A stretch of 64,000 nucleotides of DNA from an uncultured Candidatus Saccharibacteria bacterium (lineage in GTDB: Bacteria; Patescibacteriota; Minisyncoccia; Phycocordibacterales; PALSA-1337): the NCBI GenBank assembly GCA_964558375.1, contig CAZLCD010000001.1:209160-273159 (forward strand), written 5' to 3'. Below are positions 1 through 53,013 of this stretch, in pieces (within the stretch, counting starts at the first letter, position 1; each line of letters begins with the position of its first letter). Made by a program: the position numbers and the translations under genes. The notes beneath the pieces were generated by a model. The model had not been told where the DNA came from. It searched no databases and saw nothing but the letters and a program-made list of their open reading frames with translations.

Positions 1-3000
1 CCGGTTTTCAGGTAATTGATATCTCAAATCCCGTTTCCCCAACTCTTGTTGGAACATATGCTTCTGCTACTAATGCTGAAGGGATCTATGTTTCTGGTAA
101 GTACGCCTATGTAACCAATTCTACAGATTTTGTTATATTAGATATCTCAAATCCTGCATCTCCATCGCTTGTAGGGACATATGTCAGTCCTTCGGACGCT
201 ATCGATGTCTACGTATCCGGCAAATATGCATATGTTGCAGATGATGCTGGTTTACTCATTATTAATATCTCAAATCCTGCATCTCCATCGCTTGTAGGTA
301 CACAAACGACAAATGCTTACTCTGTCTTTGTTTCAGGTAAATATGCATATACAGCTTCTGGTTCATCTGGTCTAAAAATCCTCGACATCAACGGTATCGA
401 AACCCCATCCCTATACGCAGGTAACATAGAGACAAACGTACTAAACGCTACAGAAAACATAATCGCAGGAGGAGATATATATGCTCAAGGAGGTCTAAAT
501 GTCGGTATCTCCGGTATCTTCTCTAGAGGTACTATCTCTGCATTTATAGCTTCTACTACTCAGACTAATCCAGTAGTTGCTACATTTATGGGAGGTAGTG
601 TAGGAATCGGCACCACCACTCCATACTCAAAACTTTCTGTCTGGGGATCTTCGAATGGCACAGCTCGACTTTTTGAACTTACCAATTCTGCTTCCACAAC
701 CCTAGCTTCTTTCTTAGAAAACGGAACAGGTTATTTCCTAGGAAATATCGGAGTTGGTACAACATCTCCTTATGCAAAGCTATCTGTTGTCGGCCAAGCT
801 GTAGCTGCATACTTCACTGCAACCACTTCTACCGCTTCCACTTTCCCTTATGCTTCGACCACAGCTATCACTTCTAGTGGTTCAGCATATTTCGGAACTT
901 CATCTGGTGGAGTATTGATCGGCACTACTACAGCAACTTCAACTTCCAAACTCACACTTGCCGGTGGAAACTTTTTACATACAGCAGTGGGGAATCCGAC
1001 ATTGAAGGGATCATATAATACAACAGGTGATGCTCATGATGTGTTCGTCTCTGGTAAATATACTTATATTGCTGATGGTGGCTCAGGACTTCATATCATA
1101 GACACTTCCAATCCTGGATCACCGGTTCTTATAGGAACTTACAATACTTCTAGTTTTGCTTACGGTGTTAAAGTGTCCGGCAAATATGCCTATGTTGCGG
1201 ATTATAGTTCTGGTCTTAATATCATCGATGTTTCAAACCCAACAGCACCTACTCTTGTAGGAATATATAATACAAGTGATCATGCATATGATGTGTATGT
1301 TTCCGGAAAATACGCTTACGTTGCGGATGATGGAACAGGTCTTAATATTATTGATATATCAGATCCAACAACACCAACTCTTGTCGGAACATATAATACA
1401 TCTTCTGGTTCCCAGGGTGTGCAAGTTTCCGGAAAATATGCTTACGTTGCGGATAGTTCATCAGGTCTCAATATTATAGACATATCAAATCCAACAGCAC
1501 CTTCTTTGGTTGGTATATACGATACTGGAGATGCTTTTGACGTTTATGTTTCTGGTAAGTACGCATATGTGGCAGATTTTCTTGGTTTGAAAATTGTAAA
1601 TATTTCCAACCCTGCTTCACCTTCACTTGTGAGTACATATAGTCCTATTACTATACCCGGTGTAGTTGATGGTATTTATGTTGCTGGTAACTACGCTTAT
1701 ATAACAGTTGATGATGAAAGTTCGGATTCAGGTCTAGTAATTGTAAATATCTCAAATCCTGCATCACCATCACTAGTTGGAACTTATAATGTTGCTGGTG
1801 CATCAGATTTTCTAACTCATGACGATGTTTTTGTTTCCGGAAAGTATGCATACATGGCAAATGGAGCTGCCGGCCTCCAAATAATAGACATCAACGGTAT
1901 CGAAACCCCATCCCTATACGCAGGTAATATCGAAACCAATGTACTCAACGCTACAGAAAACATAATCGCAGGAGGAGACATATATGCTCAAGGAGGTCTC
2001 AATGTAGGAATCTCAGGTATCTTCTCTAGAGGAACTATCTCTGCATTCATCGCTTCTACTACTCAGACAAATCCTGTAGTTGCTACATTCATGGGAGGTA
2101 ATGTGGGTATCGGAACAACATCTCCATGGCGTACTCTTTCTGTAACTGGTTCATCTGATCTTGGTAACAATGCTCTAGCTGGATACTTCACTGCAACCAC
2201 CACAGCTACCTCAACCTTCGGAGGCTCTCTAGCTGTAACAGAAACCAATGCCACTTCAACTTTTGCAGGAGGTATAGACCTCTCTGATGGATGCTTCGCT
2301 ATTGATGGAGTGTGTCTAAGTGTAGGAGGAGGAAGTTACGGAGACACAAACGTTAACTCCTACATCCACGCTTCTAGTACAATCCCAAAGACATATACTG
2401 CGAATACTTTTACAGCAGATCAAACATTTAGTGGATCAATCGTAGCAAATGGAGCTATATATGCAAATAATCTATATGGAGGAAATGCTGCTGTGACTTG
2501 GAACGGAGCAACAGCTCTACCGATAAACCAATTTAACTTTAATTTTGGTAATAATGCTCTTGCATATACATCAGGAAATGGAGGAGTGTTTAAAATTGCT
2601 GCTGCTTATAATCAGACTGGTACCGCTGCCAACACTGATCTTTTAATAAGTAGAACTGAAACAGCGATAGGATCTGGATTGCAATATTTAATCGATGCAC
2701 AAGTGGGTAGCGCAAGTAAATTCAATGTAACTAATACAGGTCAAGGATATTTCCTAGGTAACCTAGGAATCGGAACAAGCTCCCCATATGCGAAACTTTC
2801 TGTTGTCGGTCCGGTAGTTGCTCAATATTTCCATGCTACCTCTACAACAGCGACAAGTACTATCGGTGGCTCACTTGTTGTCGGTGGCCCAAGAGTCTTT
2901 TCTGGCTATTCTGTAACTGGCGGTCTTGGAAATATCGCGGCTGGTGATGCTCAAGCTGGTACAGCTATCAATGCGTCTGGTCAAGGTGCTTTTGCTTACG

Positions 3001-8432: not shown

Positions 8433-8450
8433 ATAAATGATTAAAATAAA

Positions 8451-12011: not shown

Positions 12012-12025
12012 ATAATCTGATATAA
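11757..12025 (+). repeat. family 3' tail repeat, copy 1: Pro/Thr linker 'TPTYTPAYTPTHTPT.Y.YKKP', the 'PDLPPSPSFEPLDFIPTDYIQILLDLIKQFF..' domain, and the shared downstream 'tagataatctgatataataaa'
   Basis: DNA is about 85% identical over roughly 255 nt with 17307-17580 and 22507-22765. A diverged copy lies at 56650-56898. Copies 1 and 2 also share about 20 nt of intergenic sequence after the stop codon. Confidence 0.85.
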
Positions 12026-12039
12026 TAAAATGCAAATGT

Positions 12040-15000
12040 ATGAATAGATTTTTAAAAATAATTTTACTTGTTACAATCACTGTTTCTTCAGTATCATCTA
12101 TAAATATTTCTACCGCATCTGCTAGTCTCACTGATGGCCTCGTAGCTCACTATACTTTCGATGACAATACAAATGACTCTGCTGGAACAAACAACGGTAC
12201 TGCATCAGGTGGACCAAGTTATGTAGAGGGTAAAGTGGGGAAGGCACTGCAGTTTGACGGAACCAACGACTATATAACTCTCAGTAACACTTCAGCAGCA
12301 GACATGACAACAAATAACTTCACAGTTTCTCTGTGGCTTAAAACAAATACAACAGCAACAACTCAGTATAGGTTAATAAGCAAAAGAGGTAGTGATGGGT
12401 ATGAGATCTATCTTGGTTCCGGACAAAATGGTCTCGCTGCATACTGTGATACTACTGGAGGTGGATGTTTAAATGATAATAATCTTGGAACGGCGAGCGT
12501 GAGAGATATGAAGTGGCATCATGCTGTAGTTGTGTTTGACCGTAGTGGAAATATGACTGGATATGTTGACGGTAATGTTGGTTCAAGTCCATCAAATATC
12601 TCAGCTGCAGTAGGATCTATGACAGTTGCTCAAAATCTAATGATTGGTCAATATAGTAATGGGGGTGGTGACTATTTCAACGGCACCCTCGACGACGTCC
12701 GCGTCTATAACCGGGCTTTGTCTGCTGATGAAATAATTCAATTGTACAATCAAAGTTCTGATTCCACACCAGATATTCCTGTAGAAGAAGTGCCTGATGA
12801 TACTCCAACGGATCCAACCTCAACTCCAACCCAATATAACCTATCTGTTTTAATGAGTGGTTCTGGTAATGGATCTATATCCGGTACTGGTATTTCATGT
12901 GGTACTGATTGTAGTGAAGTTGTAAATTCAGGTACGCAAGTAACGCTTACGGCTTCTCCAGCAAATAGTTCAAGTATTTTTTCTGGGTGGAGTGGAGGTG
13001 GGTGTTCCGGTACAGGAAACTGTGTAGTCACAGTCTCTTCAGACAAAACAGTAACTGCAACATTTACAACTCAACCATTAGTAATAGATGGTAAAAATAC
13101 AGTTACCCAATCAATGTTTTATACAAAAAACGGTTTATATAATGGATATGTTCGTGACAATACAGGATTCCATCCTTTTGTAGCAGATTCATTTCCAGGA
13201 CACTATATTAAAGCTGCAGATTTAAAAGGTATTAGTCAAGCATCAATCATTCCATTGGACCAGACATATTATGGTGATAATCTTGGAAATCAAGTTAATG
13301 GTTATCCCGCTAGTGAAGCAGCAGTAAAGCTCTCAGTTGGTGGAGATTCAATTTCTCTTGATTTGGTTAATATTGAATATGGAGTCTATGTGATTAGATT
13401 GGTTGGTAGGGTAAATCAACCTACCATTCCACGTATCAGGAAACCCCTCTATGTTCATTTAAAAATAAACGATGGACCGAATGGTGAAGTGAATGATTAT
13501 CGAATGAGGGTACTGTATTCTAATAACCTAGAAGAAACTGGCAGAATATTCTTTAATGCTCTAAAACCAAATAATAATCTTCATGCGGAACTTTTTGTTG
13601 GTCCAGGCAGTCAAGAAGATTTATTAATACACAGAATAGATTTTTTTGATGCGCTAGCCGATATACAGAAAAAAGCTGTGAAGACCTCAGCGACTACATA
13701 TACAGCAGAAGAAAAATCTTCTGCTCAGACTCAGGGTAAAAAACTAATAGGTCTAGGTACACGCTCATCAGATTGCGGCTTCTTTGGGATAGATTATTGC
13801 GGAGATAATATTTTTTGGCAATGGTTCAATGGTGGCTACACAACGACTCCAGCTGTGTCTTCTGCAGAAACTCGTCGACAAAGAGATGATATTATCTGGA
13901 ATGCTTTACCACCACTAAATGCCATGACAGCTGGTATAGATGGTACATACAATGCTTATGATAAATGGCCAAATGGTATGACGACTGCAGAGGTTGTCGA
14001 ACAATATGGGAAGTGGGAACTCGATCCGATAGTTACAAATCAGCAATATATCTATCAATACTATGACAGACCTTGGAAAATAGTTAATAAAAAATTGAAC
14101 CTAGAATATACCTTAGAAGATTACAAGGCTCACAAACCCCTACCCGATCCGTACCCTTTTAAAGATGATGGAAGTGGTGTTTATTTTCCAGCATCAACCC
14201 ATGACAGTCCAGGTACATATCAATTCATTATTGCTCCACTCATACTACAGAGAATACAAGGTCAATACTCAACTTCTTTTTTTGATCCAGCTGGTGGGCC
14301 GGGACTCAATTTACCATACAGGTATTTTTTGACTAATGATGAAAAAGTTGCAAGAGATACAGCTCTTGCCTTGGTCAGATTTTCTTCACAATGGCCAGCA
14401 TTTCAGTTTGAAGCTCAAGACCTTGCTTACAATAGCGCTCTTCCAGAGCTAGTTTTTAATGGAGCTTGGCGATGGACCAATGCTCGTATTGGTAAGGTTG
14501 TAGGTATAAAAGAAGACGAAATCCAAGGTTATCTCTATGCCTATGACTATCTTTTTGATTATATTAAAAATAATCAGGAATTAGCAGACGCTGTGCACAG
14601 ATATATACCATGGGTTCAAACCCCCGATGATATTATTGAACTGATCGATACTCATTTTGTTAAATCTTTAAAAAATGATATTAGTAATAAAAGAGTAATT
14701 TTTACAAAGCCCCTATTGATCGACCTTGTTCTTCAAGATACAGCGATAGAGCAGACGGAAAGCCCAATGGATATTTCAAAAATAATTAACTTCATTCATC
14801 CTCTCACTACTTCACTTAAAAATCACTATAGCAACTCCTTTACTCAAAATGGCACTATGTTCATAGGGTCATCTTTCTATGTTATCGGAGAATCTTCGGC
14901 ATTTATTAATATGCTTGACCCAATGACGCGCTACAAGGATTCGACTGGGAAATCTATTCCGTATGATCTGACTAATCTTGATTTGTTTCCAAAGGTTAGG

Positions 15001-17562
15001 GAATATTGTAATACTTTTTCTGATTATACAGTGGCGGGAGGTTACGAACCATCTTTTGGTGATGCCGCAGATACTATCTATGAAAAACGCCAGCTAAATC
15101 CAGGATTGGTTTCCCAAATTAAAAATATGTGGAGATTCTGTAGGAATCCCAAAGCCGCTTGGTTGCTTGTTAATGTGGTCGGAAGAACTGATCAAAGTAA
15201 TACTGAATGGTCTTCTGCTCAGTCGGCAGCTAATAATGTTCGTGATCCTAGAATTTCTTCTAATTCAAGAACATTAAATGGTCTAGGTCTAGGTATATTA
15301 GAGAGTGGCGTTAGTTCAAATGACTATAGAGATAAACGAGCGGTAATGGTTAGAACCGGTAGTGGTTATGGGCATGAACACCACGATGCTCTAGACCTTA
15401 GCTGGTTCGCTCTTGGACTTCGAATGGGAACTGATTATGGACAGAGGAATGAAGGAAACTTATATACCGTACCCAATGATGAAGCTTCGAATACTCACAA
15501 TGTCCTAGAGGTTGATGGTTTAAAGCATCCATTGAGAGCGACTGATGGTTGGCCATCAGGAAGTTTCTCTGCTTCAGATGCGTGGATATCAGTTTTTGCC
15601 CCAGAAAATGGAGCTCAATATATCTCTGCTCAATCAAAATCAGCTGACCATACCAATGTTAATATTTTCAGGCGAGATACTTCACTTATAGATATAGACG
15701 ATAAGAACTCCTATGTATTCGATGTCTTTAGAGTTGGTGGTGGACAAATGCACACATGGTCTTTCCATGGAGCTGATACATCAGGAGAATCTGGCGGTCT
15801 ACAAGTTAATGTGCCTATGAACTCGACTCTAGATAGTGATGCTAGTCAGTATCTTAGAAAACATGCAGAGGGTACTAGAACACAGGGTGTGGCAACTAAT
15901 AAAATTGAAGCAACATGGAGATTAGGTAGGACTTCAAATACTGCAAATCTTAACAATGCTGATGGTGCATCACTCTCAGTTACAACTGTCGCTGCAGAGC
16001 AAAGTATGCTGGGTTCTGATTACAATGCTTCCTCCCCAAGAAAATATACCAAGACTACTTTATTCGACAGATCGGGTGATAAAGTCATGATGGGTAATCT
16101 GTATTCTGCATACTACAAAATTAATGAACCAAATCTTTTTGTACAATCAGGAACTGGTGGTAGTTATAACTCTGGAAGTAATAAGCAAGATGTATATCCT
16201 GCTATAATTGAAGCTTACGCTGGTTCATCTCTTATCTCCGCTAGTCAATCACTTTCTGTTACTCCGAATGAATCTGATGCTCTAAAAGCTGTTGCGCTTT
16301 CAGTCACTACTACAAATGGTAATAATGATATATTGTTTTCAGATGGAAGAAATACAACTCGTACGATCGGAGGGGGTACTATGACCGCCAATGCGCAATT
16401 TGGTTACTATTCATCAAATGCTGGAAATATGAGAATGATGACTATTGTTGGTGGTACAAATCTAACAAAAGGAAATTATTCTCTAAAACCATCCGTTGCA
16501 GTAAATTCCTCTACTATCCAAAGTGTTAATTATCGTGATCGTAAGATATATACATCTTCAAAATTTCCAAAAACTCTTATCAATCGCGACTTTCATATAA
16601 AAAATACTGATCACGAAACTTCATACAAAATAATCAATATTGTTGACTCTGGCTCTGGTAGTATACTTACCTTCGAAAAACCTGCAGATATCGGGGTTCT
16701 TAAGATTGATGGCCTGTCAGGTAACACCATTACATCCTCAGATAGTTGGATTTTAGACTATACACCTAACAGAAATAGGGGATTAACCGGTACAAATGAA
16801 TCTGGTTCTAAAGTTTTTAAGATTAAAAAGACGGCAAGTAATGGCGGAAGTTCAAATACAATTTCTGGAGCATCTGTTTCTCAAGCTGATTTTACTGATA
16901 TTGATGGAGATGGAATCTCTCAGGTACTTGTATATGATTTTGGCATAGGCGATACAATAGAGGTTGCATCCGCCTCAACTTTAAAAAGAGTAAATAACAA
17001 TGATATATATCAACTAACAAGTAACACACCTCTGTCTGTAACTTTACCTGGTACTGGAAGCTTGGAAATTAGTTCAAATTCTTCTAGTTGGACAAAGATT
17101 AACAGTACCTTATCTACAAATTCAGTAACAGCGAACATTACTGAATCACAACTACTATCAGGTATCAAATATGTTAGAGCTTCATCAAACCCTGGTATTA
17201 ATCTTACATTAGAAGAGTTGAAAAAATTAGAGGACCAAGCTCTTCTTAATGTACCTCTTAATCCACTTACCCCATTACCTAACCCAGATCCTTTTCCTCT
17301 CTCCCCGCTAAATCCTACTACTCCAACCTACACTCCCGCATATACACCAACCCATACTCCAACACCCTATACCTACAAGAAACCAGTAACTCAAGCACCC
17401 AAGGTTATCTCTCCAACCCCAGACCTCCCACCCTCCCCATCCTTCGAACCTCTAGACTTCATACCCACCGACTATATACAGATATTACTCGACCTTATTA
17501 AACAATTCTTCATCGATCTTATAGAAAGGATTAAGAGGGGAGTAGATAGGATAATTGGATAG
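12040..17562 (+). CDS. secreted multi-domain protein: signal peptide, LamG domain, InlB-B-repeat-like Cys domain, large alpha/beta core (possibly heparinase II/III-like polysaccharide lyase; weak call), conserved C-terminal tail domain
   Basis: 'MNRFLKIILLVTITVSSVSS' is the signal peptide and LamG ends '...LDDVRVYNRALSADEIIQLYNQS'. 'SGSGNGSISGTGISCGTDCSEVVNSGTQVTLTASPANSSSIFSGWSGGGCSGTGNCVVTVSSDKTVTATF' fits the divergent InlB B-repeat pattern. 'YGHEHHDALDLSWFALGL' recalls heparinase II/III motifs with low confidence. The C-terminal tail is identical in type to that of 8451..12011. Confidence 0.85.
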   Translation: MNRFLKIILLVTITVSSVSSINISTASASLTDGLVAHYTFDDNTNDSAGTNNGTASGGPSYVEGKVGKALQFDGTNDYITLSNTSAADMTTNNFTVSLWLKTNTTATTQYRLISKRGSDGYEIYLGSGQNGLAAYCDTTGGGCLNDNNLGTASVRDMKWHHAVVVFDRSGNMTGYVDGNVGSSPSNISAAVGSMTVAQNLMIGQYSNGGGDYFNGTLDDVRVYNRALSADEIIQLYNQSSDSTPDIPVEEVPDDTPTDPTSTPTQYNLSVLMSGSGNGSISGTGISCGTDCSEVVNSGTQVTLTASPANSSSIFSGWSGGGCSGTGNCVVTVSSDKTVTATFTTQPLVIDGKNTVTQSMFYTKNGLYNGYVRDNTGFHPFVADSFPGHYIKAADLKGISQASIIPLDQTYYGDNLGNQVNGYPASEAAVKLSVGGDSISLDLVNIEYGVYVIRLVGRVNQPTIPRIRKPLYVHLKINDGPNGEVNDYRMRVLYSNNLEETGRIFFNALKPNNNLHAELFVGPGSQEDLLIHRIDFFDALADIQKKAVKTSATTYTAEEKSSAQTQGKKLIGLGTRSSDCGFFGIDYCGDNIFWQWFNGGYTTTPAVSSAETRRQRDDIIWNALPPLNAMTAGIDGTYNAYDKWPNGMTTAEVVEQYGKWELDPIVTNQQYIYQYYDRPWKIVNKKLNLEYTLEDYKAHKPLPDPYPFKDDGSGVYFPASTHDSPGTYQFIIAPLILQRIQGQYSTSFFDPAGGPGLNLPYRYFLTNDEKVARDTALALVRFSSQWPAFQFEAQDLAYNSALPELVFNGAWRWTNARIGKVVGIKEDEIQGYLYAYDYLFDYIKNNQELADAVHRYIPWVQTPDDIIELIDTHFVKSLKNDISNKRVIFTKPLLIDLVLQDTAIEQTESPMDISKIINFIHPLTTSLKNHYSNSFTQNGTMFIGSSFYVIGESSAFINMLDPMTRYKDSTGKSIPYDLTNLDLFPKVREYCNTFSDYTVAGGYEPSFGDAADTIYEKRQLNPGLVSQIKNMWRFCRNPKAAWLLVNVVGRTDQSNTEWSSAQSAANNVRDPRISSNSRTLNGLGLGILESGVSSNDYRDKRAVMVRTGSGYGHEHHDALDLSWFALGLRMGTDYGQRNEGNLYTVPNDEASNTHNVLEVDGLKHPLRATDGWPSGSFSASDAWISVFAPENGAQYISAQSKSADHTNVNIFRRDTSLIDIDDKNSYVFDVFRVGGGQMHTWSFHGADTSGESGGLQVNVPMNSTLDSDASQYLRKHAEGTRTQGVATNKIEATWRLGRTSNTANLNNADGASLSVTTVAAEQSMLGSDYNASSPRKYTKTTLFDRSGDKVMMGNLYSAYYKINEPNLFVQSGTGGSYNSGSNKQDVYPAIIEAYAGSSLISASQSLSVTPNESDALKAVALSVTTTNGNNDILFSDGRNTTRTIGGGTMTANAQFGYYSSNAGNMRMMTIVGGTNLTKGNYSLKPSVAVNSSTIQSVNYRDRKIYTSSKFPKTLINRDFHIKNTDHETSYKIINIVDSGSGSILTFEKPADIGVLKIDGLSGNTITSSDSWILDYTPNRNRGLTGTNESGSKVFKIKKTASNGGSSNTISGASVSQADFTDIDGDGISQVLVYDFGIGDTIEVASASTLKRVNNNDIYQLTSNTPLSVTLPGTGSLEISSNSSSWTKINSTLSTNSVTANITESQLLSGIKYVRASSNPGINLTLEELKKLEDQALLNVPLNPLTPLPNPDPFPLSPLNPTTPTYTPAYTPTHTPTPYTYKKPVTQAPKVISPTPDLPPSPSFEPLDFIPTDYIQILLDLIKQFFIDLIERIKRGVDRIIG

Positions 17563-17580
17563 ATAATCTGATATAATAAA
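17307..17580 (+). repeat. family 3' tail repeat, copy 2
   Basis: See copy 1. The identity is visible directly, for example in 'cccagacctcccaccctccccatccttcgaacctctagacttcatacccaccgactatat'. Confidence 0.85.
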
Positions 17581-17584
17581 GTGA

Positions 17585-19756
17585 ATGATAAAATTATTTA
17601 AAATTACTTCTGTTTGCATTTCGATTGCTATAGTCTTCTTATTATCCCTACCCACCACGACCCATGCCCTCACCCTCACTAGTAGCTCAAATAACCTAGG
17701 TCTCAATGCTGGACTTGTAGGATGGTGGACCTTCGACGGTAAAGACGTGGTCAATGGTAGAGCTTTAGACAAGTCAGGAAATGCAAATCATGGAACTCTC
17801 ACCAACATCTCTACTTCCACCTTCTATACCACAGGCAAGATCGGGCAGGGGTTTAGGTTTGATGGCACCAACGACTATATAACTCTCAGTAACACTTCAG
17901 CAGCAGACATGACAACAAATAACTTCACAGTTTCTCTGTGGCTTAAAACAAATACAACAGCAACAACTCAGTATAGGTTAATAAGCAAAAGAGGTAGTGA
18001 TGGGTATGAGATCTATCTTGGTTCCGGACAAAATGGTCTCGCTGCATACTGTGATACTACTGGAGGTGGATGTTTAAATGATAATAATCTTGGAACGGCG
18101 AGCGTGAGAGATATGAAGTGGCATCATGCTGTAGTTGTGTTTGACCGTAGTGGAAATATGACTGGATATGTTGACGGTAATGTTGGTTCAAGTCCCTCAA
18201 GTATATCAGCTGCAGTAGGCTCTATGACGGTCGCACAAAGTCTAATGATTGGTCAGTATAGTAATGGTGGCGGTGACTATTTCAACGGCTCCCTCGACGA
18301 CGTCCGTGTCTATAATCGAGCACTCTCAGCCACTGAAATCCGCCAACTCTACAACCAAGGAGCAGCCACCAAGCAAGGTGTAGCCCAGAAGGTAACAGCA
18401 ACTTCTACCTGTAGTACAGGACTATCCTGTGGGCTCGTCGGCTACTGGTCCTTTGATGGTAAAGATGTAGTAAACGGTAGAGCTCTAGATAAGTCAGGTA
18501 ATGCAAATCATGGAACTCTTACAAACATCTCCACCTCTACTTTCTATACAACAGGCAAGATCGGGCAGGGGTTTAAGTTCGATGGGGTGAATGATACCGT
18601 AAACATAGCTACAAACATGTTTGCCAACAGGACTGAGTTTTCATTGATGGTGTGGACCAAAAAAACTAAAGGAACTACAGGTTCTGTATTTTCTTCTTCT
18701 AACGGTGGTCCATATTGGAGATTCACTTCTGCAACCACAATATTGCATTATATAGAAAAATCAGACTGTACAGGATCTTCGAGAGGTGTAGCATATCCAG
18801 ATGATGGCAAGTTTCATTATATTGGTTTTACGGTCAGTACAGCTGGACTCGTTAGATTTTATGTAGATGGAGTGGTAGTTGACTCTTATACATATCCTAG
18901 TTGGAATTATGCATGTGCAGATGCTACAGATTGGCGTAGTATCGGTTCTTACGCAGTATCCAATTATTTCAACGGCCTCCTCGACGACGTCCGCATCTAC
19001 AACCGCGCGCTCTCAGCAACCGAAGTCACCCAGCTCTACAACCAAGGTGCAGCAACCAAACAAGGTGTAGCACAGAAGGTAACAGCCACCTCCACCTGTA
19101 GTACAGGACTATCCTGTGGGCTCGTAGGCTACTGGTCTTTTGATGGTAAAGATGTAGTAAATGGAGTAGCGAGAGACAAGTCAGGAGGTAACAATCATGG
19201 TAACCTAGTGAATATCGCCACTTCTACATTCTATGTACCAGGCAAGATCGGGCAGGGGTTTAAGTTTGATGGGGTGGATGATTATGTGAGTGTAGGAAAT
19301 AATACGGTTTTGGCTCCGACAACTGCGGTAACTATTTCTGCATGGGTAAAGCCGTTAAGAAAGGTTGATTCCAGTCACTACTCGGCAATTACATCAAGAG
19401 GTTCTGTTAATTATTTATTTATGATAAGACACGGTGGTGTTGTAGTTTTTTATCTTCCAGGGGTGCAGAACTGGGTTACTAATGACGGCGCAAAAGATCT
19501 CTTTGACGGCCAATGGCACCATGCTCTTGTGACTTATGATGGTAGCTTCCAGCGATTATATATCGATACTACACTTATAAGTTCTAGTGCTATAACAGGA
19601 AATATCACATCAAACTCGAATACAACTCTTATTGGTAGAGATACTACTGGTGCATCAAATTTTAATTTCAACGGCCTCCTCGACGACGTCCGTATCTACA
19701 ACCGTGCTCTCTCCGCTACCGAAGTCCGTCAACTCTACAACCAAGGTAAAAAATAA
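17585..19756 (+). CDS. secreted protein made of three tandem LamG domains; it lacks the family C-terminal tail
   Basis: 'MIKLFKITSVCISIAIVFLLSLPTTTHA' is the signal peptide. Three LamG units each end 'LDDVR[IV]YNRALSATE[IV].QLYNQG'. Linker 'AATKQGVAQKVTATSTCSTGLSCGLVGYWSFDGKDVVNG' occurs twice. The first LamG shares about 350 nt of near-identity with 12040..17562. Confidence 0.85.
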   Translation: MIKLFKITSVCISIAIVFLLSLPTTTHALTLTSSSNNLGLNAGLVGWWTFDGKDVVNGRALDKSGNANHGTLTNISTSTFYTTGKIGQGFRFDGTNDYITLSNTSAADMTTNNFTVSLWLKTNTTATTQYRLISKRGSDGYEIYLGSGQNGLAAYCDTTGGGCLNDNNLGTASVRDMKWHHAVVVFDRSGNMTGYVDGNVGSSPSSISAAVGSMTVAQSLMIGQYSNGGGDYFNGSLDDVRVYNRALSATEIRQLYNQGAATKQGVAQKVTATSTCSTGLSCGLVGYWSFDGKDVVNGRALDKSGNANHGTLTNISTSTFYTTGKIGQGFKFDGVNDTVNIATNMFANRTEFSLMVWTKKTKGTTGSVFSSSNGGPYWRFTSATTILHYIEKSDCTGSSRGVAYPDDGKFHYIGFTVSTAGLVRFYVDGVVVDSYTYPSWNYACADATDWRSIGSYAVSNYFNGLLDDVRIYNRALSATEVTQLYNQGAATKQGVAQKVTATSTCSTGLSCGLVGYWSFDGKDVVNGVARDKSGGNNHGNLVNIATSTFYVPGKIGQGFKFDGVDDYVSVGNNTVLAPTTAVTISAWVKPLRKVDSSHYSAITSRGSVNYLFMIRHGGVVVFYLPGVQNWVTNDGAKDLFDGQWHHALVTYDGSFQRLYIDTTLISSSAITGNITSNSNTTLIGRDTTGASNFNFNGLLDDVRIYNRALSATEVRQLYNQGKK

Positions 19757-19768
19757 TCTAAATGAATT

Positions 19769-22762
19769 ATGAATAGATTTTTTAAATTAATTTTATTTCT
19801 CACTATAATTATCTCAGTATCTCTTTCTACCAACATACCTAACGTATCCGCTAGTCTCACAGATGGACTAGTATCACACTATACTTTCGATGAAGGAAGC
19901 GGAACCACTGCAGGGGATTCTGCTGGGTCGAATGCAGGGACACTTACAAATGGACCGACTTGGGCTACGGGGAAAGTGGGAAGTGGGGCACTACAGTTTG
20001 ATGGAACGGATGATTTTGTAAAGTTAACTTCTCGCATTACATCCCCAGGTACTTTTTCTATGAGTCTATGGTTCTATCCAAAAACGGTATCTTATGCTGG
20101 AGGAGTTTTGATCGGTGGTTTAAATGCAAATTCTCAGATCACTGCAGGTCCTATTGTTACAGTAAGAGACAATGGTGCAGCGGCAACTGATGTAGCTATA
20201 TTAAAACCACTTTTTGCCAATAAATGGCAACATCTAGCTGTGACCCGTGGTGCGAGTAATGCTATTTTAATTTATCTAAATGGAGAAAATGTAACCACAG
20301 GCACTCCGACTTTTTCTATCACAAAATATTGGGATTATATCGGTAGTCGCTCTGATGGTCTATATCCTTTCTCTGGTTCCCTCGACGACATCCGCATCTA
20401 CAGTCGTGTTCTAGATTCTAATGAAATAGAAGAATTAAATGATATGGGTGCAGTTGTAGCTTCTGGGGACACGGAAGCACCTTCCATACCCTCTGGTCTC
20501 ACAGCTTCTCCCACATCACAATCAAAAATCAATCTATCTTGGACTGCATCTACAGATAACACTGCCGTAACAGGATACAAGATATACAGAGGTGGTTCAG
20601 AAATAGCTACCACACCAAATACTTCCTATGAAGATACAGGACTATCTCCTAGTATTCCATACACCTACACAGTACTAGCCTATGATGCTATAGGTAATCA
20701 AAGTGAAAAATCCTCTCCTACCTCTGCAACTATACAATCAGATACTCCTGTCGCAGATACACCTCCACCGGCTGACAATACAGTATGGTACGTCTCACCT
20801 ACAGGAACATCAGCTGGAACTGGTTCCATTACTAGTCCTTGGGATCTACAGACAGCTTTTACTAATACAGGTAAGAAGATAAAACCGGGACATACTGTAT
20901 GGATGCGGGGAGGGGTTTATGGGCTCGGAGGAAATACAGTTTTTGGTCATCGATGGGATGGGTTGAGTGGAACAAGTGGTAATCAAATTACTTTTAGAAA
21001 TTATGCAAATGAGCGAGCTATTATAAATGGATCTATCGCTGGAAGTGGAAATTACCTTACTTTCTTTGGATTTGAAATAATGAATTCAAATCCTGTGCGT
21101 AAGATCAGTACTTTTGATAAGCCAGGAGGGATAAATATAGGTGGTAAGGGTAACAGAGTGATCAATCTGGTTATACATGATGTAGGACATTCACCAATTG
21201 GAGGAATATCCGAAGGAGAAATTTACGGAGTAATAATGTGGGGTAGCGGTATATACGATACAAGCAATCCATTATATCCAAATGGTCTAGCCCGAGGATC
21301 TGGTATGTACCTCCAGAATCGTAATGGAAACTCTTATGTTTCCGATTCAATTTCTTTTAAGCAATTTACGACTGGAATGAAAGCCTATGCACAAGAAGGA
21401 CATGTTAATGGATTTAAATTTGAAGGCAATGTAGTGTTCGATAACAATGATATAAACCTTGAAACTATCGCAATTACAAATCCAGCTAAGGATATTTCCT
21501 GGATAGAAAATTACACTTACACAGATCCTCTTGATATTAAAAAGCCAGCACAGCTAGGATGGGTTTCAAACGATATGATAGATGCAATAGTCAAAGATAA
21601 TTATTTTGTAAATGGAAGTAATCCTAAAGGAGCACTCTTTGTTCATAAATGGAAAGATTTAAATGTGACCGGTAATACTTTTATCTCTCAACGACAAGCT
21701 GCTAACGTTCCAGTATTGTCTTTCGATATGCCTGACACCACGACTTCACATACCTGGAACTCCAACAAATATTACGGAGGCAATTCATCTTCTCTATTTT
21801 TCCTCGACAATGTTGCTAAGACCTTCGATCAATGGAAATCCACCACCGGCTTCGACTCCAACAGCACCTACTCATCATCTCTACCTAGTACCAATGCCAT
21901 TTTCGTAAGACCAAACAAATACGAACAAGGAAGAGCACATGTCATTGTCTATAACTGGGAAAACAAAAACCAAGTAAATGTAAACATTTCAAATATAGGA
22001 CTTCAAACAGGAGACAACTTTGCTATATTCGATGTACAGAACTTCCTAGGAGAACCAGTAATGAGAGGAGTGTATAATGGTCAGTCAGTAGATCTTCCTA
22101 TGAACCTCACCACCATCACTCCTCTCATCGGTAGACAAAACATTACACATTTCAATCCAAACACTCATACAGACAAGAAATTCAATGTCTTTGTTGTCTT
22201 AAAGACCAATGGAGTCTATTCTCAACAGAACTATGTGATCCCTCCACCTCCAGCAAACCTTCCTCCACCCACAGTAGAGATACCCAATCTACCAATTGAC
22301 TTACTAGTGAATGGATCTTGTTCTACACGGTTGAATAGATGCTCAAACGGCACAGTATCTGGTAGAACCTCCAACACTACCCACAATCTCTGGACTTGTA
22401 ATGGTTTAAATGGAGGTACCAACGCTTCTTGCTCTACCTTAAAGACAGTAGAAGATCCTGTAAATCCTATAGCACCTGCAGATCCTTTACCGACTCCTCC
22501 TTCTGCACTAAACCCCCTAACCCCAACCTACACTCCAGCATACACCCCAGCACACACTCCAACACCCTATACCTACAAGAAACCAACCACTTCCACACCC
22601 AAACCAATAGCAGGAACCCCTGATCTCCCACCCTCCCCGTCCTTCGAACCTCTAGACTTCATACCCACCGACTATATACAGATATTACTCGACCTAATTA
22701 AACAATTCTTCATTAATCTTATGGAGAGGATTAAGAGAGGGGTGGAGAGGATAATTGGATAA
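19769..22762 (+). CDS. secreted multi-domain protein: signal peptide, LamG, FN3, parallel beta-helix-like core (pectate-lyase-fold candidate), 4-Cys module, conserved C-terminal tail domain
   Basis: 'MNRFFKLILFLTIIISVSLS' is the signal peptide and LamG ends 'LDDIRIYSRVLDSNEIEELNDMG'. 'APSIPSGLTASPTSQSKINLSWTAS..AVTGYKIYRG' is FN3. Repetitive 'G..N..I..' turns are consistent with a beta-helix. The Cys module is 'CSTRLNRCSNGTVSGRTSNTTHNLWTCNGLNGGTNASCS'. The tail reads '...PDLPPSPSFEPLDFIPTDYIQILLDLIKQFFINLMERIKRGVERIIG'. Confidence 0.85.
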   Translation: MNRFFKLILFLTIIISVSLSTNIPNVSASLTDGLVSHYTFDEGSGTTAGDSAGSNAGTLTNGPTWATGKVGSGALQFDGTDDFVKLTSRITSPGTFSMSLWFYPKTVSYAGGVLIGGLNANSQITAGPIVTVRDNGAAATDVAILKPLFANKWQHLAVTRGASNAILIYLNGENVTTGTPTFSITKYWDYIGSRSDGLYPFSGSLDDIRIYSRVLDSNEIEELNDMGAVVASGDTEAPSIPSGLTASPTSQSKINLSWTASTDNTAVTGYKIYRGGSEIATTPNTSYEDTGLSPSIPYTYTVLAYDAIGNQSEKSSPTSATIQSDTPVADTPPPADNTVWYVSPTGTSAGTGSITSPWDLQTAFTNTGKKIKPGHTVWMRGGVYGLGGNTVFGHRWDGLSGTSGNQITFRNYANERAIINGSIAGSGNYLTFFGFEIMNSNPVRKISTFDKPGGINIGGKGNRVINLVIHDVGHSPIGGISEGEIYGVIMWGSGIYDTSNPLYPNGLARGSGMYLQNRNGNSYVSDSISFKQFTTGMKAYAQEGHVNGFKFEGNVVFDNNDINLETIAITNPAKDISWIENYTYTDPLDIKKPAQLGWVSNDMIDAIVKDNYFVNGSNPKGALFVHKWKDLNVTGNTFISQRQAANVPVLSFDMPDTTTSHTWNSNKYYGGNSSSLFFLDNVAKTFDQWKSTTGFDSNSTYSSSLPSTNAIFVRPNKYEQGRAHVIVYNWENKNQVNVNISNIGLQTGDNFAIFDVQNFLGEPVMRGVYNGQSVDLPMNLTTITPLIGRQNITHFNPNTHTDKKFNVFVVLKTNGVYSQQNYVIPPPPANLPPPTVEIPNLPIDLLVNGSCSTRLNRCSNGTVSGRTSNTTHNLWTCNGLNGGTNASCSTLKTVEDPVNPIAPADPLPTPPSALNPLTPTYTPAYTPAHTPTPYTYKKPTTSTPKPIAGTPDLPPSPSFEPLDFIPTDYIQILLDLIKQFFINLMERIKRGVERIIG

Positions 22763-22765: not shown

Positions 22766-22873
22766 GCAATTCACAACATTGACTTTCCCTCAATCTTCCT
22801 GTATCTTATTCAATGTAAGTTTTCCTAGTCGCTTACAGTTTATTTATTTAAGACGGGTTAAAAGTAAAAGAAA

Positions 22874-23179
22874 ATGGCAAAGAAGTTATATGTAGGAGGT
22901 ATTTCATACGGCACAAGCGAAGACGCTCTTAAGGCGCATTTCGCAGCAGCTGGAACAGTTGAATCAGCTAGTATTATCATGGACAAGATGACAGGCCGAT
23001 CAAAAGGTTTTGGATTCGTCCAGATGACAGACGATGCTGGTGCAGACAATGCAATCAACATGTTCAATGGTAAGCCACTTGACGGAAGAAACCTTACCGT
23101 CAACGAAGCACGACCTATGGAACCTCGCGCTCCTAGAAAGGATTTCAATCGAGGTGGCGAAAGTCGCGGAAATTGGTAA
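22874..23179 (+). CDS. RRM-type RNA-binding protein (RNP-1 'KGFGFVQM', Gly/Arg-rich C-terminus)
   Basis: 'KLYVGGISYGTSEDALKAHFAAAGTVESASIIMDKMTGRSKGFGFVQM' shows the RNP-2 and RNP-1 motifs of small bacterial Rbp proteins. Confidence 0.8.
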   Translation: MAKKLYVGGISYGTSEDALKAHFAAAGTVESASIIMDKMTGRSKGFGFVQMTDDAGADNAINMFNGKPLDGRNLTVNEARPMEPRAPRKDFNRGGESRGNW

Positions 23180-23214
23180 TACCTTACCGTCTTATTTAGT
23201 CAAAAGCTAAATAC

Positions 23215-23248
23215 AAAAAACACTCAAACGAAAGTCTGAGTGTTTTTT
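23215..23248. terminator. bidirectional intrinsic terminator between the convergent RRM gene (+) and LOG gene (-)
   Basis: 'aaaaaaCACTCAaacGAAAgtcTGAGTGtttttt' has an A-tract, a stem-loop with a GAAA loop and a T-tract. Confidence 0.7.
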
Positions 23249-23267
23249 GTTGGTTATATATTGGAAA

Positions 23268-26227: not shown

Positions 26228-26243
26228 ATGTTAATATTATAAC

Positions 26244-30753: not shown

Positions 30754-30771
30754 GGGTGGTATAATATTGGG

Positions 30772-36940: not shown

Positions 36941-36949
36941 TGGTATAAT
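36941..36949 (+). promoter_or_regulatory. extended -10 element (TGgTATAAT) upstream of gyrB
   Basis: 'gaagcTGGTATAATttacc' lies 26 nt upstream of the gyrB ATG. Confidence 0.35.
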
Positions 36950-47299: not shown

Positions 47300-47407
47300 G
47301 GGGGTATTATAGCAAATTTAAAAAGTTATCCCCAAGTTCTTAAGATTTGATAAAGATTTTATGAATTTAGTTGTTGCATTTATATGGTGGATTGAGATAA
47401 TTCACCT

Positions 47408-52974: not shown

Positions 52975-53013
52975 AAATAAGAAAACCTATGCTATAATTT
53001 AGCGAAACATTTC

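What the first reader, a model, noticed from the sequence alone, without database searches (positions are those of the whole stretch)
1..22762. 22.7-kb co-directional array of five giant secreted protein genes with 12-28 nt spacers
The giant LVIVD/fibre gene and four LamG-led paralogues are separated by only 18, 28, 22 and 12 nt, with no intervening terminators until the bidirectional terminator at 23215. This looks like one transcription unit encoding a modular surface apparatus: a fibre plus lectin-armed enzymes or adhesins. LamG first-domain paralogues arrayed behind a tail-fibre-like protein resemble a host-interaction (episymbiont attachment and feeding) locus, not a metabolic operon.
Basis: partly seen in the sequence, partly recalled or inferred. 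Interest (0 to 1): 0.6.

Follow-up and report, generated by a model that had tools for sequence, protein, structure and literature searches.

The report
Patescibacterial fibre and lectin-enzyme gene cluster
A small-genome (Patescibacteria-type) bacterium spends 22.7 kb on one giant phage-fibre-like surface protein followed by four secreted lectin-headed proteins, three of which carry polysaccharide-processing-type cores and a C-terminal tail seen in no other sequenced organism. This is a plausible kit for gripping and cutting a partner's sugar coat, but the sequence does not show it to be a single operon.

Summary
The five co-directional ORFs and the 18/28/22/12-nt spacers are real. g1 runs off the left edge (at least 2,809 aa). 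It contains LVIVD propellers, tail-fibre-like repeats and a Peptidase_S74 chaperone domain. g2-g5 have Sec-type signal peptides and LamG heads, but their cores are unrelated:
- g2: a tandem β-propeller (AF2 pLDDT 91).
- g3: a PL17/heparinase-like fold (AF2 pLDDT 86; Foldseek E=5e-18) with the His/His/Asp/His site conserved.
- g4: three LamG domains only.
- g5: probably a β-helix.

Homologs of the g2, g3 and g5 cores in other phyla sit inside exopolysaccharide biosynthesis clusters.

g2, g3, g5 and a sixth gene (53014-56898) share a roughly 62-aa C-terminal tail. It has no relative among 1.84 billion representative proteins.

The single-operon reading is weakened. g3 and g4 each have a TGATATAAT box 13 and 7 nt before the ATG, which is this genome's usual promoter geometry (10 of 35 genes, p~1e-12). 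Short spacers are normal here. The terminator at 23213 belongs to a separate RRM gene with its own promoter.

DNA similarity to a related genome starts at 22779, so the array lies in a variable region.

Verdict: a real accessory surface-protein cluster and a new variant of a known kind. Moderately interesting.

The parts
1..8432 (+). g1: 3' part (at least 2,809 aa) of a giant fibre gene. It has three LVIVD β-propeller blocks (about aa 1-130, 340-640 and 1240-1530), each followed by an identical ~75-aa connector. It also has eight 'NVGIGTTSPYAKLSV'-type tail-fibre collar motifs.
   Evidence: Frame open from nt 3. Pfam LVIVD E=3.7e-198 with 18 stretches, and Beta_propel. NCBIfam choice-of-anchor B, 118 bits against a cutoff of 100. 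Repeat map. More than 1,400 homologs, with the source names that are given being almost all Patescibacteria/Paceibacterota 'tail fiber domain-containing protein'.
7320..7460 (+). Peptidase_S74 (intramolecular chaperone of endosialidase) domain of g1. It starts at SSARFKNNI (aa 2440) and is followed by about 320 more residues rich in S/T and E/K.
   Evidence: Pfam PF13884, 36 bits against a cutoff of 22. Sequence shown.
8451..12011 (+). g2 (1,186 aa): signal peptide or signal anchor, LamG (aa 108-263), fn3-like domain (aa ~284-369), tandem 7-bladed β-propeller core (aa 381-1030, nt 9591-11540), four-Cys motif (nt 11580-11693), Pro/Thr stalk, private tail.
12018..12026 (+). TGATATAAT extended -10 box in the 28-nt g2-g3 spacer. 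The hexamer ends 13 nt before the g3 ATG.
12040..17562 (+). g3 (1,840 aa): signal peptide (ASA|S), LamG (aa 73-232), InlB B-repeat (aa 274-344), a ~1,370-aa core with a PL17/heparinase II/III-like fold, Pro-rich stalk, private tail. The conserved site is H1112, H1114, D1116, D1132, Y1143 and H1153 (motif from nt 15364).
   Evidence: Pfam. AF2 of aa 351-1550: pLDDT 86, pTM 0.83. Foldseek top hits are Alg17c 4ok2/4nei and 8bdd, then PL15/PL12/PL21 lyases, E from 5e-18 to 1e-10. Family profile against PDB: PL17 AlgL17 E=2e-4 at the GHGHxD...D...HN motif. Invariant columns. Residue positions.
17569..17577 (+). TGATATAAT extended -10 box in the 22-nt g3-g4 spacer. The hexamer ends 7 nt before the g4 ATG, which is leaderless geometry.
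17585..19756 (+). g4 (723 aa): signal peptide (THA|L) and three LamG domains, with no core and no tail. LamG1 shares 502 nt at 93.8% identity with the g3 LamG, including about 250 nt that are identical.
   Evidence: Pfam, 3 stretches, E=6.8e-79..
19769..22762 (+). g5 (997 aa): signal peptide (VSA|S), LamG (aa 78-220), fn3 (aa 240-320), a ~515-aa core (nt 20774-22318, probably a right-handed β-helix), four-Cys motif (nt 22319-22432), Pro/Thr stalk, private tail.
   Evidence: Pfam. The core itself has no Pfam or PDB hit. Homologs at 32-33% identity over ~475 aa in L015 and L017 hit PF13229 Beta_helix. An ortholog with 68.5% identity is in L013.
11823..12008 (+). Private C-terminal tail, copy in g2 (YKKP...PDLPPSPSFEPLDFIPTDYI, then amphipathic helix, then RIKRG).
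17374..17559 (+). Private C-terminal tail, copy in g3.
22574..22759 (+). Private C-terminal tail, copy in g5.
53014..56898 (+). g6 (1,294 aa), a sixth family member outside the finding: signal peptide, LamG, fn3, 4x four-Cys motif, an uncharacterised core, 2x InlB B-repeat, private tail (56692-56895). It lies alone between smc and RNase R, with its own TGCTATAAT at 52990-52998.
22779..23250 (+). Right boundary: conserved RRM-gene unit made of a promoter (22779-22807), the RRM gene (22874-23179) and a bidirectional terminator (23213-23250). DNA similarity to the related Patescibacteria contig L003 begins at 22779.
   Evidence: 85.7% nt identity over 377 nt; RRM protein 96.8% identical.

Best explanation
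This is an accessory cluster of cell-surface protein genes in the chromosome of a Patescibacteria (CPR) bacterium. It is not a demonstrable single operon.

g1 encodes a very long fibre. The fibre is studded with LVIVD β-propellers and built like a phage tail fibre. A Peptidase_S74 intramolecular-chaperone domain probably drives its trimerisation and then cuts itself off (inferred).

g2-g5 are exported by Sec. Each begins with a LamG carbohydrate-binding head. Three of them, plus g6 elsewhere in the window, follow one modular plan: head, spacer domains, a variable core, a Pro/Thr-rich stalk, and a lineage-private C-terminal tail. The tail has an invariant 21-aa motif, an amphipathic heptad helix and RIxRG. 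It most likely anchors or docks the proteins at the cell surface (inferred).

The cores are a tandem β-propeller (g2), a PL17/heparinase-like lyase- or epimerase-type domain (g3) and a probable β-helix (g5). In free-living bacteria, all three core families sit inside exopolysaccharide biosynthesis clusters. The most likely job is therefore to bind and cut or modify an extracellular, probably acidic, polysaccharide. For an episymbiont without adjacent glycan-synthesis genes, the likeliest substrate is the capsule or EPS of a partner cell, much as phage tailspike depolymerases work.

Expression probably starts from at least three promoters: one upstream of g1 that is not visible, one before g3 and one before g4. 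These would give leaderless or near-leaderless mRNAs.

The family evolves by duplication and gene conversion of heads and tails, inside a variable region that ends at nt 22779.
For: Anatomy:
- ORFs and spacers.
- Domains.
- Signal peptides have K/R n-regions, 15-aa hydrophobic cores with KD 2.2-3.2, and AxA-type sites.

Folds:
- g3 fold: AF2 pLDDT 86. Foldseek finds PL17, PL15, PL12 and PL21 lyases at E from 5e-18 to 1e-10.
- The g3 family profile aligns H-x-H-x-D...D...Y...H to Alg17c positions 413/415/417/433/450/464.
- g2 fold.
- g5 family: Beta_helix hits in two homologs.

Links between the cores:
- P0164 fuses a g5-type core to a g2-type core (56% identity).
- g2-core homologs in Verrucomicrobia and Desulfobacca lie in clusters with GT2, GT4, Wzy_C and CapK. 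So do a g3-core homolog in Verrucomicrobiae and two g5-core homologs. Individual clusters add Bac_transf, DegT or an exosortase.

Tail:
- Four copies in the window.
- Only self-hits among 1.84e9 representative proteins. None in JGI metagenome contigs.
- Homologs in other phyla carry dockerin repeats at the same C-terminal position, and a CPR homolog ends in a linker plus a helix.

Promoters:
- A perfect TATAAT ends 6-15 nt before the ATG at 10 of 35 genes against 1% of control ATGs, p~1e-12.
- Seven of the eight TGNTATAAT sites lie just upstream of starts.

Variable region:
-.

Gene conversion:
-.
Against: - There is no transcript, proteomic or enzymatic evidence.
- g2 and g5 lack a canonical -10 box (4/6 and 5/6 matches). 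g1-g2 and g4-g5 may therefore be co-transcribed, and read-through across g3 and g4 is not excluded because no internal terminators exist.
- g3 itself does not reach any Pfam or NCBIfam lyase threshold.
- The catalytic residues of the toroid domain could not be mapped.
- The fold is shared with dermatan-sulfate epimerase, so lyase activity is not assured.
- In other bacteria these cores sit in the organism's own EPS loci. That points to self-polysaccharide processing at least as much as to attack on a host.
- One g3-core homolog (Teredinibacter) is not in an EPS locus.
- The tail's function rests on position and analogy only.
- The Patescibacteria assignment rests on the names of homologs and on synteny, not on a marker-gene phylogeny.
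Confidence: 0.55

Rival explanations
1. One reading: the five genes form one operon whose products assemble into a single surface apparatus, with the fibre as scaffold and the lectin-armed proteins riding on it.
For: The genes are co-directional, the spacers are 12-28 nt, and no terminator-like hairpin lies at any junction. g2 and g5 have no strong promoter box of their own. A common C-terminal tail on three of the four LamG proteins could be a docking module. Homologs use dockerin at that position.
Against: Canonical TGATATAAT boxes sit at leaderless distance before g3 and g4. Short spacers and promoters inside spacers are the norm in this genome. g6 carries the same tail but lies 30 kb away as a single gene. 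In three related loci the fibre gene is followed by different genes. The g3 and g5 orthologs stand without the array. No cohesin-like partner was identified.
Confidence: 0.2
2. Self-maintenance: the LamG-led proteins trim, epimerise or export the bacterium's own exopolysaccharide or wall glycan, as AlgL/AlgG-type enzymes do in EPS operons. The fibre is unrelated and merely adjacent.
For: In five of the six loci tested in non-CPR bacteria, homologs of the three cores lie inside the organism's own EPS biosynthesis clusters.
Against: No glycosyltransferase, Wzy/Wzx or priming transferase is present anywhere in the 64-kb window. Here the cores have gained LamG lectin heads and a surface tail that the EPS-cluster homologs lack. 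The genes are accessory and absent from the nearest relative.
Confidence: 0.2
3. Nutrient scavenging: a cellulosome-like set of secreted, lectin-targeted polysaccharide-degrading enzymes that feeds a fermentative CPR cell from environmental polymers. No specific host is involved.
For: g3 has a PL17 exolyase-like fold. The window encodes glycolytic genes (aldolase, PfkB kinase). Homologs carry dockerins.
Against: No transporters or downstream uronate-catabolism genes lie nearby. The g2 core shows no enzyme-like match. The association in other phyla is with biosynthesis clusters, not utilisation loci.
Confidence: 0.1
4. Prophage or phage-tail remnant: g1-g5 are tail fibre and depolymerase genes of an integrated phage.
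For: g1 has a Peptidase_S74 domain and tail-fibre-like repeats. NCBI names homologs 'tail fiber domain-containing protein'.
Against: PHROG hits cover only generic LVIVD, LamG and fn3 domains. No capsid, portal, terminase or integrase gene is present, and the flanks are housekeeping genes. The fibre gene sits downstream of secA in three other Patescibacteria chromosomes. All four LamG proteins have Sec signal peptides.
Confidence: 0.03

Closest known systems
Phage tail fibres and tailspikes with a C-terminal intramolecular chaperone (Peptidase_S74; endosialidase of coliphage K1F, phage T5 L-shaped tail fibre)
   Same: g1 has a Pfam-significant S74 domain that starts with a Ser...Lys motif (SSARFK). 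Repetitive fibre sequence precedes it. The neighbouring genes encode depolymerase-type folds, as tailspikes do.
   Different: The gene is chromosomal, not in a phage. The fibre is interrupted by three or more LVIVD β-propellers. About 320 residues follow the S74 domain instead of it being terminal. Cleavage and trimerisation were not tested.
Patescibacteria 'tail fiber domain-containing' / choice-of-anchor B (LVIVD) giant surface proteins, and the giant surface proteins described for Vampirococcus lugosii (PMC8080830)
   Same: The architecture (LVIVD plus S74) recurs in several homologs such as P0102, P0122 and P0123. The chromosomal position near secA is the same in three relatives. The literature infers host recognition and attachment for such giant CPR proteins.
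   Different: No member has been characterised. The downstream LamG-led lyase-like genes are not part of the conserved arrangement.
PL17 alginate lyase Alg17c and the heparinase II/III superfamily (PL12, PL15, PL21), including AlgL-type lyases encoded in EPS operons
   Same: The g3 core has an α-toroid plus β-sandwich fold. The top structural hits have TM-scores (normalised to target length) up to 0.65. The H-x-H-x-D...D...H site and a Tyr align with Alg17c. A homolog lies inside an EPS cluster.
   Different: Identity is only 10-13%. No curated family threshold is reached. The core is twice as long (about 1,370 aa), with extra N- and C-terminal β-domains. It is fused to LamG and a private tail. 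The toroid catalytic residues were not mapped.
Cellulosomal enzymes (different catalytic cores sharing a C-terminal dockerin)
   Same: Different cores share one C-terminal module. Homologs of the g3 core in other phyla do end in dockerin repeats at that position.
   Different: The tail is not a dockerin (no PF00404, no Ca-binding repeats). No cohesin or scaffoldin was found.
Sortase/exosortase-type tripartite C-terminal sorting signals (LPXTG, PEP-CTERM)
   Same: The layout is a Pro/Thr-rich stalk, then an invariant short motif, then a ~20-aa helix, then a basic cluster (RIKRG) at the extreme C-terminus of Sec-exported proteins.
   Different: The helix is amphipathic and too polar for a membrane span (19-aa KD 0.9-1.15, with Asp and Lys inside). 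No NCBIfam sorting-signal model matches. No sortase gene is in the window.

Membership tests
Peptidase_S74 intramolecular-chaperone tail fibre/tailspike | S74 domain detected above the curated threshold | tested here: met
   PF13884, 36 bits against a cutoff of 22, g1 aa 2440-2486.
Peptidase_S74 intramolecular-chaperone tail fibre/tailspike | Ser-Lys pair at the start of the domain (autocleavage site; the definition is recalled from the endosialidase literature) | tested here: met
   S2440-S-A-R-F-K2445. Cleavage itself was not tested.
Peptidase_S74 intramolecular-chaperone tail fibre/tailspike | Encoded in a phage or prophage | tested here: not met
   The flanks are housekeeping genes. PHROG hits cover generic domains only.
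LVIVD repeat / choice-of-anchor B | LVIVD repeats and the TIGR04312 model above cutoff | tested here: met
   PF08309 E=3.7e-198 with 18 stretches. TIGR04312, 118 bits against a cutoff of 100.
LamG (Laminin_G_3, concanavalin-A-like lectin) domain proteins | Laminin_G_3 above the gathering threshold at the N-terminus | tested here: met
   g2 74 bits, g3 103, g4 264 (3 domains), g5 80, g6 78, all against a cutoff of 27.6.
PL17 / heparinase II/III-like polysaccharide lyases | (α/α) toroid plus antiparallel β-sandwich fold | tested here: met
   AF2 pLDDT 86. Foldseek hits on 4ok2, 8bdd, 4nei, 6jp4, 6lja, 4mmh, 2fut and 3a0o, E from 5e-18 to 1e-11.
PL17 / heparinase II/III-like polysaccharide lyases | Sequence-level membership (Hepar_II_III_C or an NCBIfam lyase model above cutoff) | tested here: not met
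   g3 has no Pfam hit. NF042990 scores 14 bits against 1,400. Two homologs reach PF07940 only marginally. The family profile against PDB PL17 gives E=2e-4.
PL17 / heparinase II/III-like polysaccharide lyases | Conserved His/His/Asp/His metal site and Tyr in the β-sandwich domain | tested here: met
   H762, H764, D766 and H803 are invariant across 35 sequences and D782 nearly so. These columns align to Alg17c 413/415/417/433/464, and the family's GY aligns to Y450. The g3 residues are H1112, H1114, D1116, D1132, Y1143 and H1153.
PL17 / heparinase II/III-like polysaccharide lyases | Catalytic Tyr/His/Asn of the toroid domain; β-elimination activity | tested here: inconclusive
   Invariant Tyr, Asn and Arg exist in the toroid part, but no invariant His. 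No residue-level structural alignment was available. Activity cannot be tested here.
Right-handed parallel β-helix (pectate-lyase-like) proteins, for the g5 core | Beta_helix model or β-helix fold | tested here: inconclusive
   The g5 core has no Pfam or PDB hit. Homologs in L015 (30.9 bits against 25.9) and L017 (19.7 bits) hit PF13229.
Sortase/exosortase-type C-terminal sorting signal | Hydrophobic transmembrane segment between the motif and the basic cluster | tested here: not met
   The maximum 19-aa Kyte-Doolittle mean is 0.89-1.15, with Asp and Lys inside. The helix is amphipathic.
Sortase/exosortase-type C-terminal sorting signal | Match to a curated sorting-signal model, and a cognate sortase nearby | tested here: not met
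   The tail has no NCBIfam hit at E<=1. No sortase-like Pfam domain is found in the window's genes.
Dockerin-bearing (cellulosome-type) enzymes | Dockerin repeats in the shared C-terminal module | tested here: not met
   g2, g3 and g5 have no PF00404. Dockerin repeats are present instead in the homologs P0004, P0006 and P0007.
Single operon | No internal promoters | tested here: not met
   TGATATAAT at 12018 and 17569, in this genome's standard promoter geometry. This is sequence evidence only.
Single operon | No internal terminators; one transcript | not testable with these tools
   No terminator-like site lies at the junctions. Transcript data are needed.
Diversity-generating retroelement target | Repeat pair with adenine-specific mismatches | tested here: not met
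   The mismatches between the g3 and g4 LamG repeats are spread over all base pairs.

The most novel reading that the evidence does not exclude
The private C-terminal tail would be a new kind of docking or sorting module. Its parts are a Pro/Thr stalk, the invariant PDLPPSPSFEPLDFIPTDYI motif, an amphipathic heptad helix and RIxRG. In this reading it mounts a set of LamG-armed polysaccharide-processing enzymes (g2, g3, g5, g6) on the cell surface or on the g1 fibre. That would give an episymbiont a cellulosome-like 'depolymerase array' for breaching a host's capsule. The enzyme cores would have been captured from other bacteria's and archaea's EPS loci.
Probability: 0.15. Interest if true: 0.75.

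Novelty: new variant of a known kind. Interest (0 to 1): 0.5.

Why it matters
How ultrasmall episymbiotic bacteria recognise and breach the surface of their partners is largely unknown. Type IV pili are the main exception. This locus offers concrete, testable candidates:
- a phage-fibre-like giant protein;
- three lectin-headed proteins whose cores belong to families that elsewhere sit inside exopolysaccharide biosynthesis clusters, one of them with a clear polysaccharide-lyase fold;
- a shared C-terminal tail that exists nowhere else in current databases.

If the tail proves to be an anchoring or docking signal, it would add a surface-display mechanism for a phylum where none has been defined.

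The promoter result also carries a practical warning. In this genome, spacers of 7-28 nt regularly contain promoters for leaderless mRNAs, so operons cannot be called from spacing.

Tried and rejected
- Exact look-ups of g5 and g3 (P0001) in the contig index found nothing. The source record could therefore not be extended to reach the g1 N-terminus or the left boundary. Cluster look-up showed only that the proteins are singletons from a 330-kb NCBI contig.
- The genome-contig scan with g3 gave only a weak LamG hit in an actinomycete. No close genome is in that collection.
- The homolog search with the g1 C-terminal half did not return g1 itself.
- Single-sequence searches of PDB with g2, g3 and g5 hit only the LamG and fn3 parts. 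Pfam at E<=5 on the cores gave nothing usable. A two-sequence profile of the g5 core against PDB gave nothing.
- The only non-self hit of the tail profile, P0163, is a VWA-repeat protein that scores by summed weak repeats. I rejected it as spurious.
- DGR targeting of the LamG repeats is rejected. A prophage origin is rejected.
- The C-terminal helix of the CPR homolog P0003 has no second copy within its 25-kb locus or in the window. 'Genome-private tails' could therefore not be shown to be general.
- The TGCTATAAT inside g3 at 16200 is not followed by an ATG and encodes a conserved motif. I do not count it as a promoter.
- Literature searches found no description of this tail, nor of leaderless promoter geometry in Patescibacteria, in the held library.
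Full report
OBSERVATION

The region contains five + strand ORFs. g1 is open from nt 3 to 8432, so it runs off the left edge and is at least 2,809 aa. The others are g2 8451-12011 (1,186 aa), g3 12040-17562 (1,840 aa), g4 17585-19756 (723 aa) and g5 19769-22762 (997 aa). The spacers are 18, 28, 22 and 12 nt, exactly as reported.

A consensus scan finds no + strand terminator-like hairpin at any junction. It does find a strong 17-bp-stem hairpin flanked by A and T runs at 23213-23250. That terminator does not follow g5, however. A 101-aa RRM-domain gene (22874-23179) lies between them, preceded by TTGACT-17-TATCTT at 22779-22807.

Tight spacing and shared direction are not special in this window. 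Ten of the 19 other same-strand junctions are 28 nt or less, and most genes are on the + strand.

ORGANISM AND CONTEXT

Downstream genes are housekeeping: TGT, class II aldolase, L25, RF, S2, EF-Ts, PheRS, GyrB, ThrRS, DnaE, RNase HII, NusB, RNase III, SMC, RNase R and TrmD.

The g1 C-terminal half has more than 1,400 homologs. The source names that are given are almost all Patescibacteria, Paceibacterota or Parcubacteria, and several read 'tail fiber domain-containing protein'.

A contig of a Patescibacteria MAG (GCA_040384045.1, locus L003) carries a related fibre gene and an RRM gene that is 96.8% identical. The window's proteins are singletons at 90% identity and come from a 330-kb NCBI contig.

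I treat the organism as a Patescibacterium. This is an inference from homolog names and synteny, not from a phylogeny.

THE GENES

g1:
- It has 18 LVIVD stretches (E=3.7e-198) and reaches the NCBIfam 'choice-of-anchor B' cutoff.
- The LVIVD stretches form three propeller blocks. Each block is followed by an identical ~75-aa connector.
- Eight tail-fibre-type collar motifs are present.
- A Peptidase_S74 domain starts at SSARFK (aa 2440).
- About 320 residues rich in S/T and E/K follow the S74 domain.

g2-g5, and a sixth gene g6 at 53014-56898, share these features:
- N-termini with K/R n-regions and 15-aa hydrophobic cores (KD 2.2-3.2).
- AxA-type cleavage sites in g3, g4 and g5 (ASA|S, THA|L, VSA|S).
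- A Laminin_G_3 head.

Beyond the head (sometimes with fn3) and the tail, the proteins are unrelated to one another:
- g2 core: AF2 with 29 homologs gives pLDDT 91.5. It is a tandem 7-bladed β-propeller with only generic structural neighbours.
- g3 core: AF2 with 35 homologs gives pLDDT 86 and pTM 0.83. Its best PDB matches are PL17 alginate lyases (4ok2, 8bdd, 4nei; E about 1e-17; TM-score normalised to target length about 0.65). Next come PL15, PL12 and PL21 heparinase-type lyases and dermatan-sulfate epimerase.
- A profile of the g3 family also matches PL17 lyases by sequence (E=2e-4), exactly at the GHGHxD...D...Y...HN segment. The corresponding columns H762, H764, D766 and H803 are invariant in 35 sequences, and D782 nearly so. 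In g3 these are H1112, H1114, D1116, D1132 and H1153, with Y1143.
- g3 itself reaches no curated lyase model. It has a lyase-like fold but is not a demonstrated PL17 member.
- g4 is three LamG domains and nothing else.
- g5 core: no Pfam or PDB match. Homologs with 32-33% identity over about 475 aa hit PF13229 Beta_helix. A right-handed β-helix is therefore likely but not shown.

WHAT LINKS THE CORES

P0164, a 1,562-aa metagenomic protein, carries a g5-type core at its N-terminus and a g2-type double propeller (56% identity) at its C-terminus.

The genomic context of homologs outside the CPR is consistent:
- g2-core homologs in a Verrucomicrobium (L007) and in Desulfobacca (L012) flank the same GT2 - CapK - GT4 - Hexapep - GT4 - Wzy - GT2 cluster.
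- A g3-core homolog in Verrucomicrobiae (L009) lies among GT4 and GT2 genes, CapK, an exosortase and a chain-length tyrosine kinase.
- Two g5-core homologs (L015, L017) lie next to clusters of GT2 or GT4 genes with a methyltransferase. L015 adds DegT, a formyltransferase and PIG-L. L017 adds Wzy.
- One g3 homolog, in Teredinibacter, is not in such a cluster.

So all three core families are extracellular components associated with exopolysaccharide loci. In the window, no glycan-synthesis gene is present. The cores have instead gained lectin heads and a tail.

A LamG plus g2-core protein with 56% identity also occurs in an archaeal contig that carries proteasome, Cdc6 and PolD genes. This indicates transfer across domains.

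THE TAIL

g2, g3, g5 and g6 end with the same module:
- a Pro/Thr-rich stalk;
- the invariant 21-aa motif TPDLPPSPSFEPLDFIPTDYI;
- a ~20-aa amphipathic helix with heptad spacing;
- RI[KT]RG.

The motif shows zero nonsynonymous and 1-5 synonymous codon differences between copies. The helix of g6 differs at 11-12 residues but keeps its hydrophobic periodicity.

A profile of the tail finds only the window's own proteins among 1.84 billion representatives, plus one spurious repeat protein. It finds nothing in JGI metagenome contigs, nothing in 443 kb of fetched loci, and no NCBIfam sorting-signal model.

The helix is too polar for a membrane span (19-aa KD of 1.15 or less).

At the same C-terminal position, homologs in other phyla carry dockerin repeats. 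A CPR homolog carries a Gly/Ser linker plus a helix. By position and analogy I read the tail as an anchoring or docking module. Its partner is unknown.

TRANSCRIPTION

No gene in the window has a Shine-Dalgarno sequence.

A perfect TATAAT ending 6-15 nt before the ATG occurs at 10 of 35 starts, against 1% of control ATGs (p about 1e-12). Seven of the eight TGNTATAAT sites in the window lie just upstream of a start codon in the right orientation. The eighth, inside g3, has no ATG after it.

g3 (box at 12018-12026, gap 13) and g4 (box at 17569-17577, gap 7) belong to this set. g5 has AATAAT (5 of 6 matches) and g2 has nothing convincing.

The box and the 21 nt after the stop codon are part of the duplicated tail unit.

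The sequence therefore predicts separate initiation at g3 and g4. Read-through cannot be excluded, because no internal terminators exist.

COMPARATIVE GENOMICS

- Similarity between the window and L003 (85.7% nt) starts at 22779, 17 nt after the g5 stop, and at 7 nt after the stop of an unrelated LamG gene in L003.
- Between its fibre gene and the RRM gene, L003 carries different genes.
- In L003, L004 and L038, an LVIVD/S74 or related fibre gene lies 0.2-9 kb downstream of secA and is followed by unrelated genes.
- The g3 ortholog of a 602-kb CPR contig (L002) and the g5 ortholog in L013 stand without the array.

The fibre gene is thus a conserved lineage feature. The LamG-led genes are accessory cargo in a variable region.

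The g3 and g4 LamG domains share 502 nt at 93.8% identity, with about 250 nt identical. The mismatches are not adenine-biased, which indicates gene conversion rather than a DGR.

MECHANISM AND COMPARISON

Shown by the sequence and the models:
- the gene anatomy;
- the domains;
- two confident fold models;
- the signal-peptide features;
- the promoter geometry;
- the uniqueness of the tail;
- the variable-region boundary;
- the EPS-cluster association of the core families.

Inferred:
- trimerisation and autocleavage of g1;
- surface anchoring through the tail;
- polysaccharide cleavage or modification by g3 and g5;
- a partner cell's capsule as the substrate.

The cluster works like a chromosomal counterpart of phage tail-fibre plus depolymerase sets, and like dockerin-tagged enzyme families. 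It fails the membership tests for prophage, dockerin and sortase-type signals. The literature infers host attachment for giant CPR surface proteins (PMC8080830) but does not describe this arrangement.

VERDICT

This is a real accessory surface-protein cluster and a new variant of a known kind. The operon claim is not supported by the sequence. The 'lectin-armed enzymes' idea is supported for g3 and plausible for g5. The most original element is the private C-terminal tail. Interest 0.5.

Noticed in passing
window 53014-56898 (+), promoter box 52990-52998: A sixth LamG-led gene (1,294 aa) with fn3, four copies of a four-Cys motif, two InlB B-repeats and the same private C-terminal tail. It stands alone between smc and RNase R.
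   Followed up: partly
whole window; e.g. 26236-26244 (-), 30757-30765, 36941-36949, 47306-47314 (-), 52990-52998: Promoters look like extended -10 boxes (TGnTATAAT) ending 6-15 nt before the ATG. None of 35 genes has a Shine-Dalgarno sequence. This implies widespread leaderless or near-leaderless mRNAs, with promoters inside spacers of 7-28 nt.
   Followed up: partly
window 29182-30048 (+): A 288-aa protein that combines a type IV pilin N-terminal methylation motif (N_methyl) with a LamG domain. It is a lectin-tipped pilin candidate 6 kb downstream of the array.
   Followed up: no
window 11580-11693, 22319-22432, 54025-54141, 55927-56046, 56083-56196, 56497-56610: A ~38-aa four-cysteine motif, CST[TR]LNxC...W[TS]CxGxNxG...C, occurs once in g2, once in g5 and four times in g6. 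No Pfam family matches it.
   Followed up: no
P0164 (locus L006 385-5073): A 1,562-aa metagenomic protein fuses a g5-type core (27-45% identity) to a g2-type double propeller (56% identity). This Rosetta-stone link connects two genes of the array.
   Followed up: partly
P0165 (locus L005 10001-13192): A protein with LamG plus a g2-type double propeller, 56% identical to g2, is encoded in an archaeal contig (proteasome, Cdc6, PolD, NAC). This suggests transfer across domains, possibly between episymbiont lineages.
   Followed up: no
L003 1-1281, L004 6775-9159, L038 4902-7376: In three other Patescibacteria loci, secA lies 0.2-9 kb upstream of the LVIVD/S74-type fibre gene. The window's g1 may occupy the same conserved position.
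   Followed up: no
window 12252-12753 vs 17857-18358: The g3 LamG and the first LamG of g4 share 502 nt at 93.8% identity, including about 250 nt that are identical. This indicates recent gene conversion and is also a possible trap for assemblers.
   Followed up: yes
window 329-628, 1832-2131, 4499-4798: g1 contains three 300-nt repeats at 84-87% identity, which encode identical ~75-aa connectors after each LVIVD block. Copy number may be unreliable in a short-read assembly.
   Followed up: no
window 47408-48232 (+): A BRO-N domain protein, a domain common in phages, overlaps the start of RNase HII by 23 nt. It is the only phage-flavoured gene seen in the window.
   Followed up: no
L013 1-550: The first ~550 nt of this 3.9-kb microbial-mat contig encode a product with a very different, Ala/Arg/Pro-rich composition from the rest, which carries the g5 ortholog. 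The contig may be chimeric.
   Followed up: no
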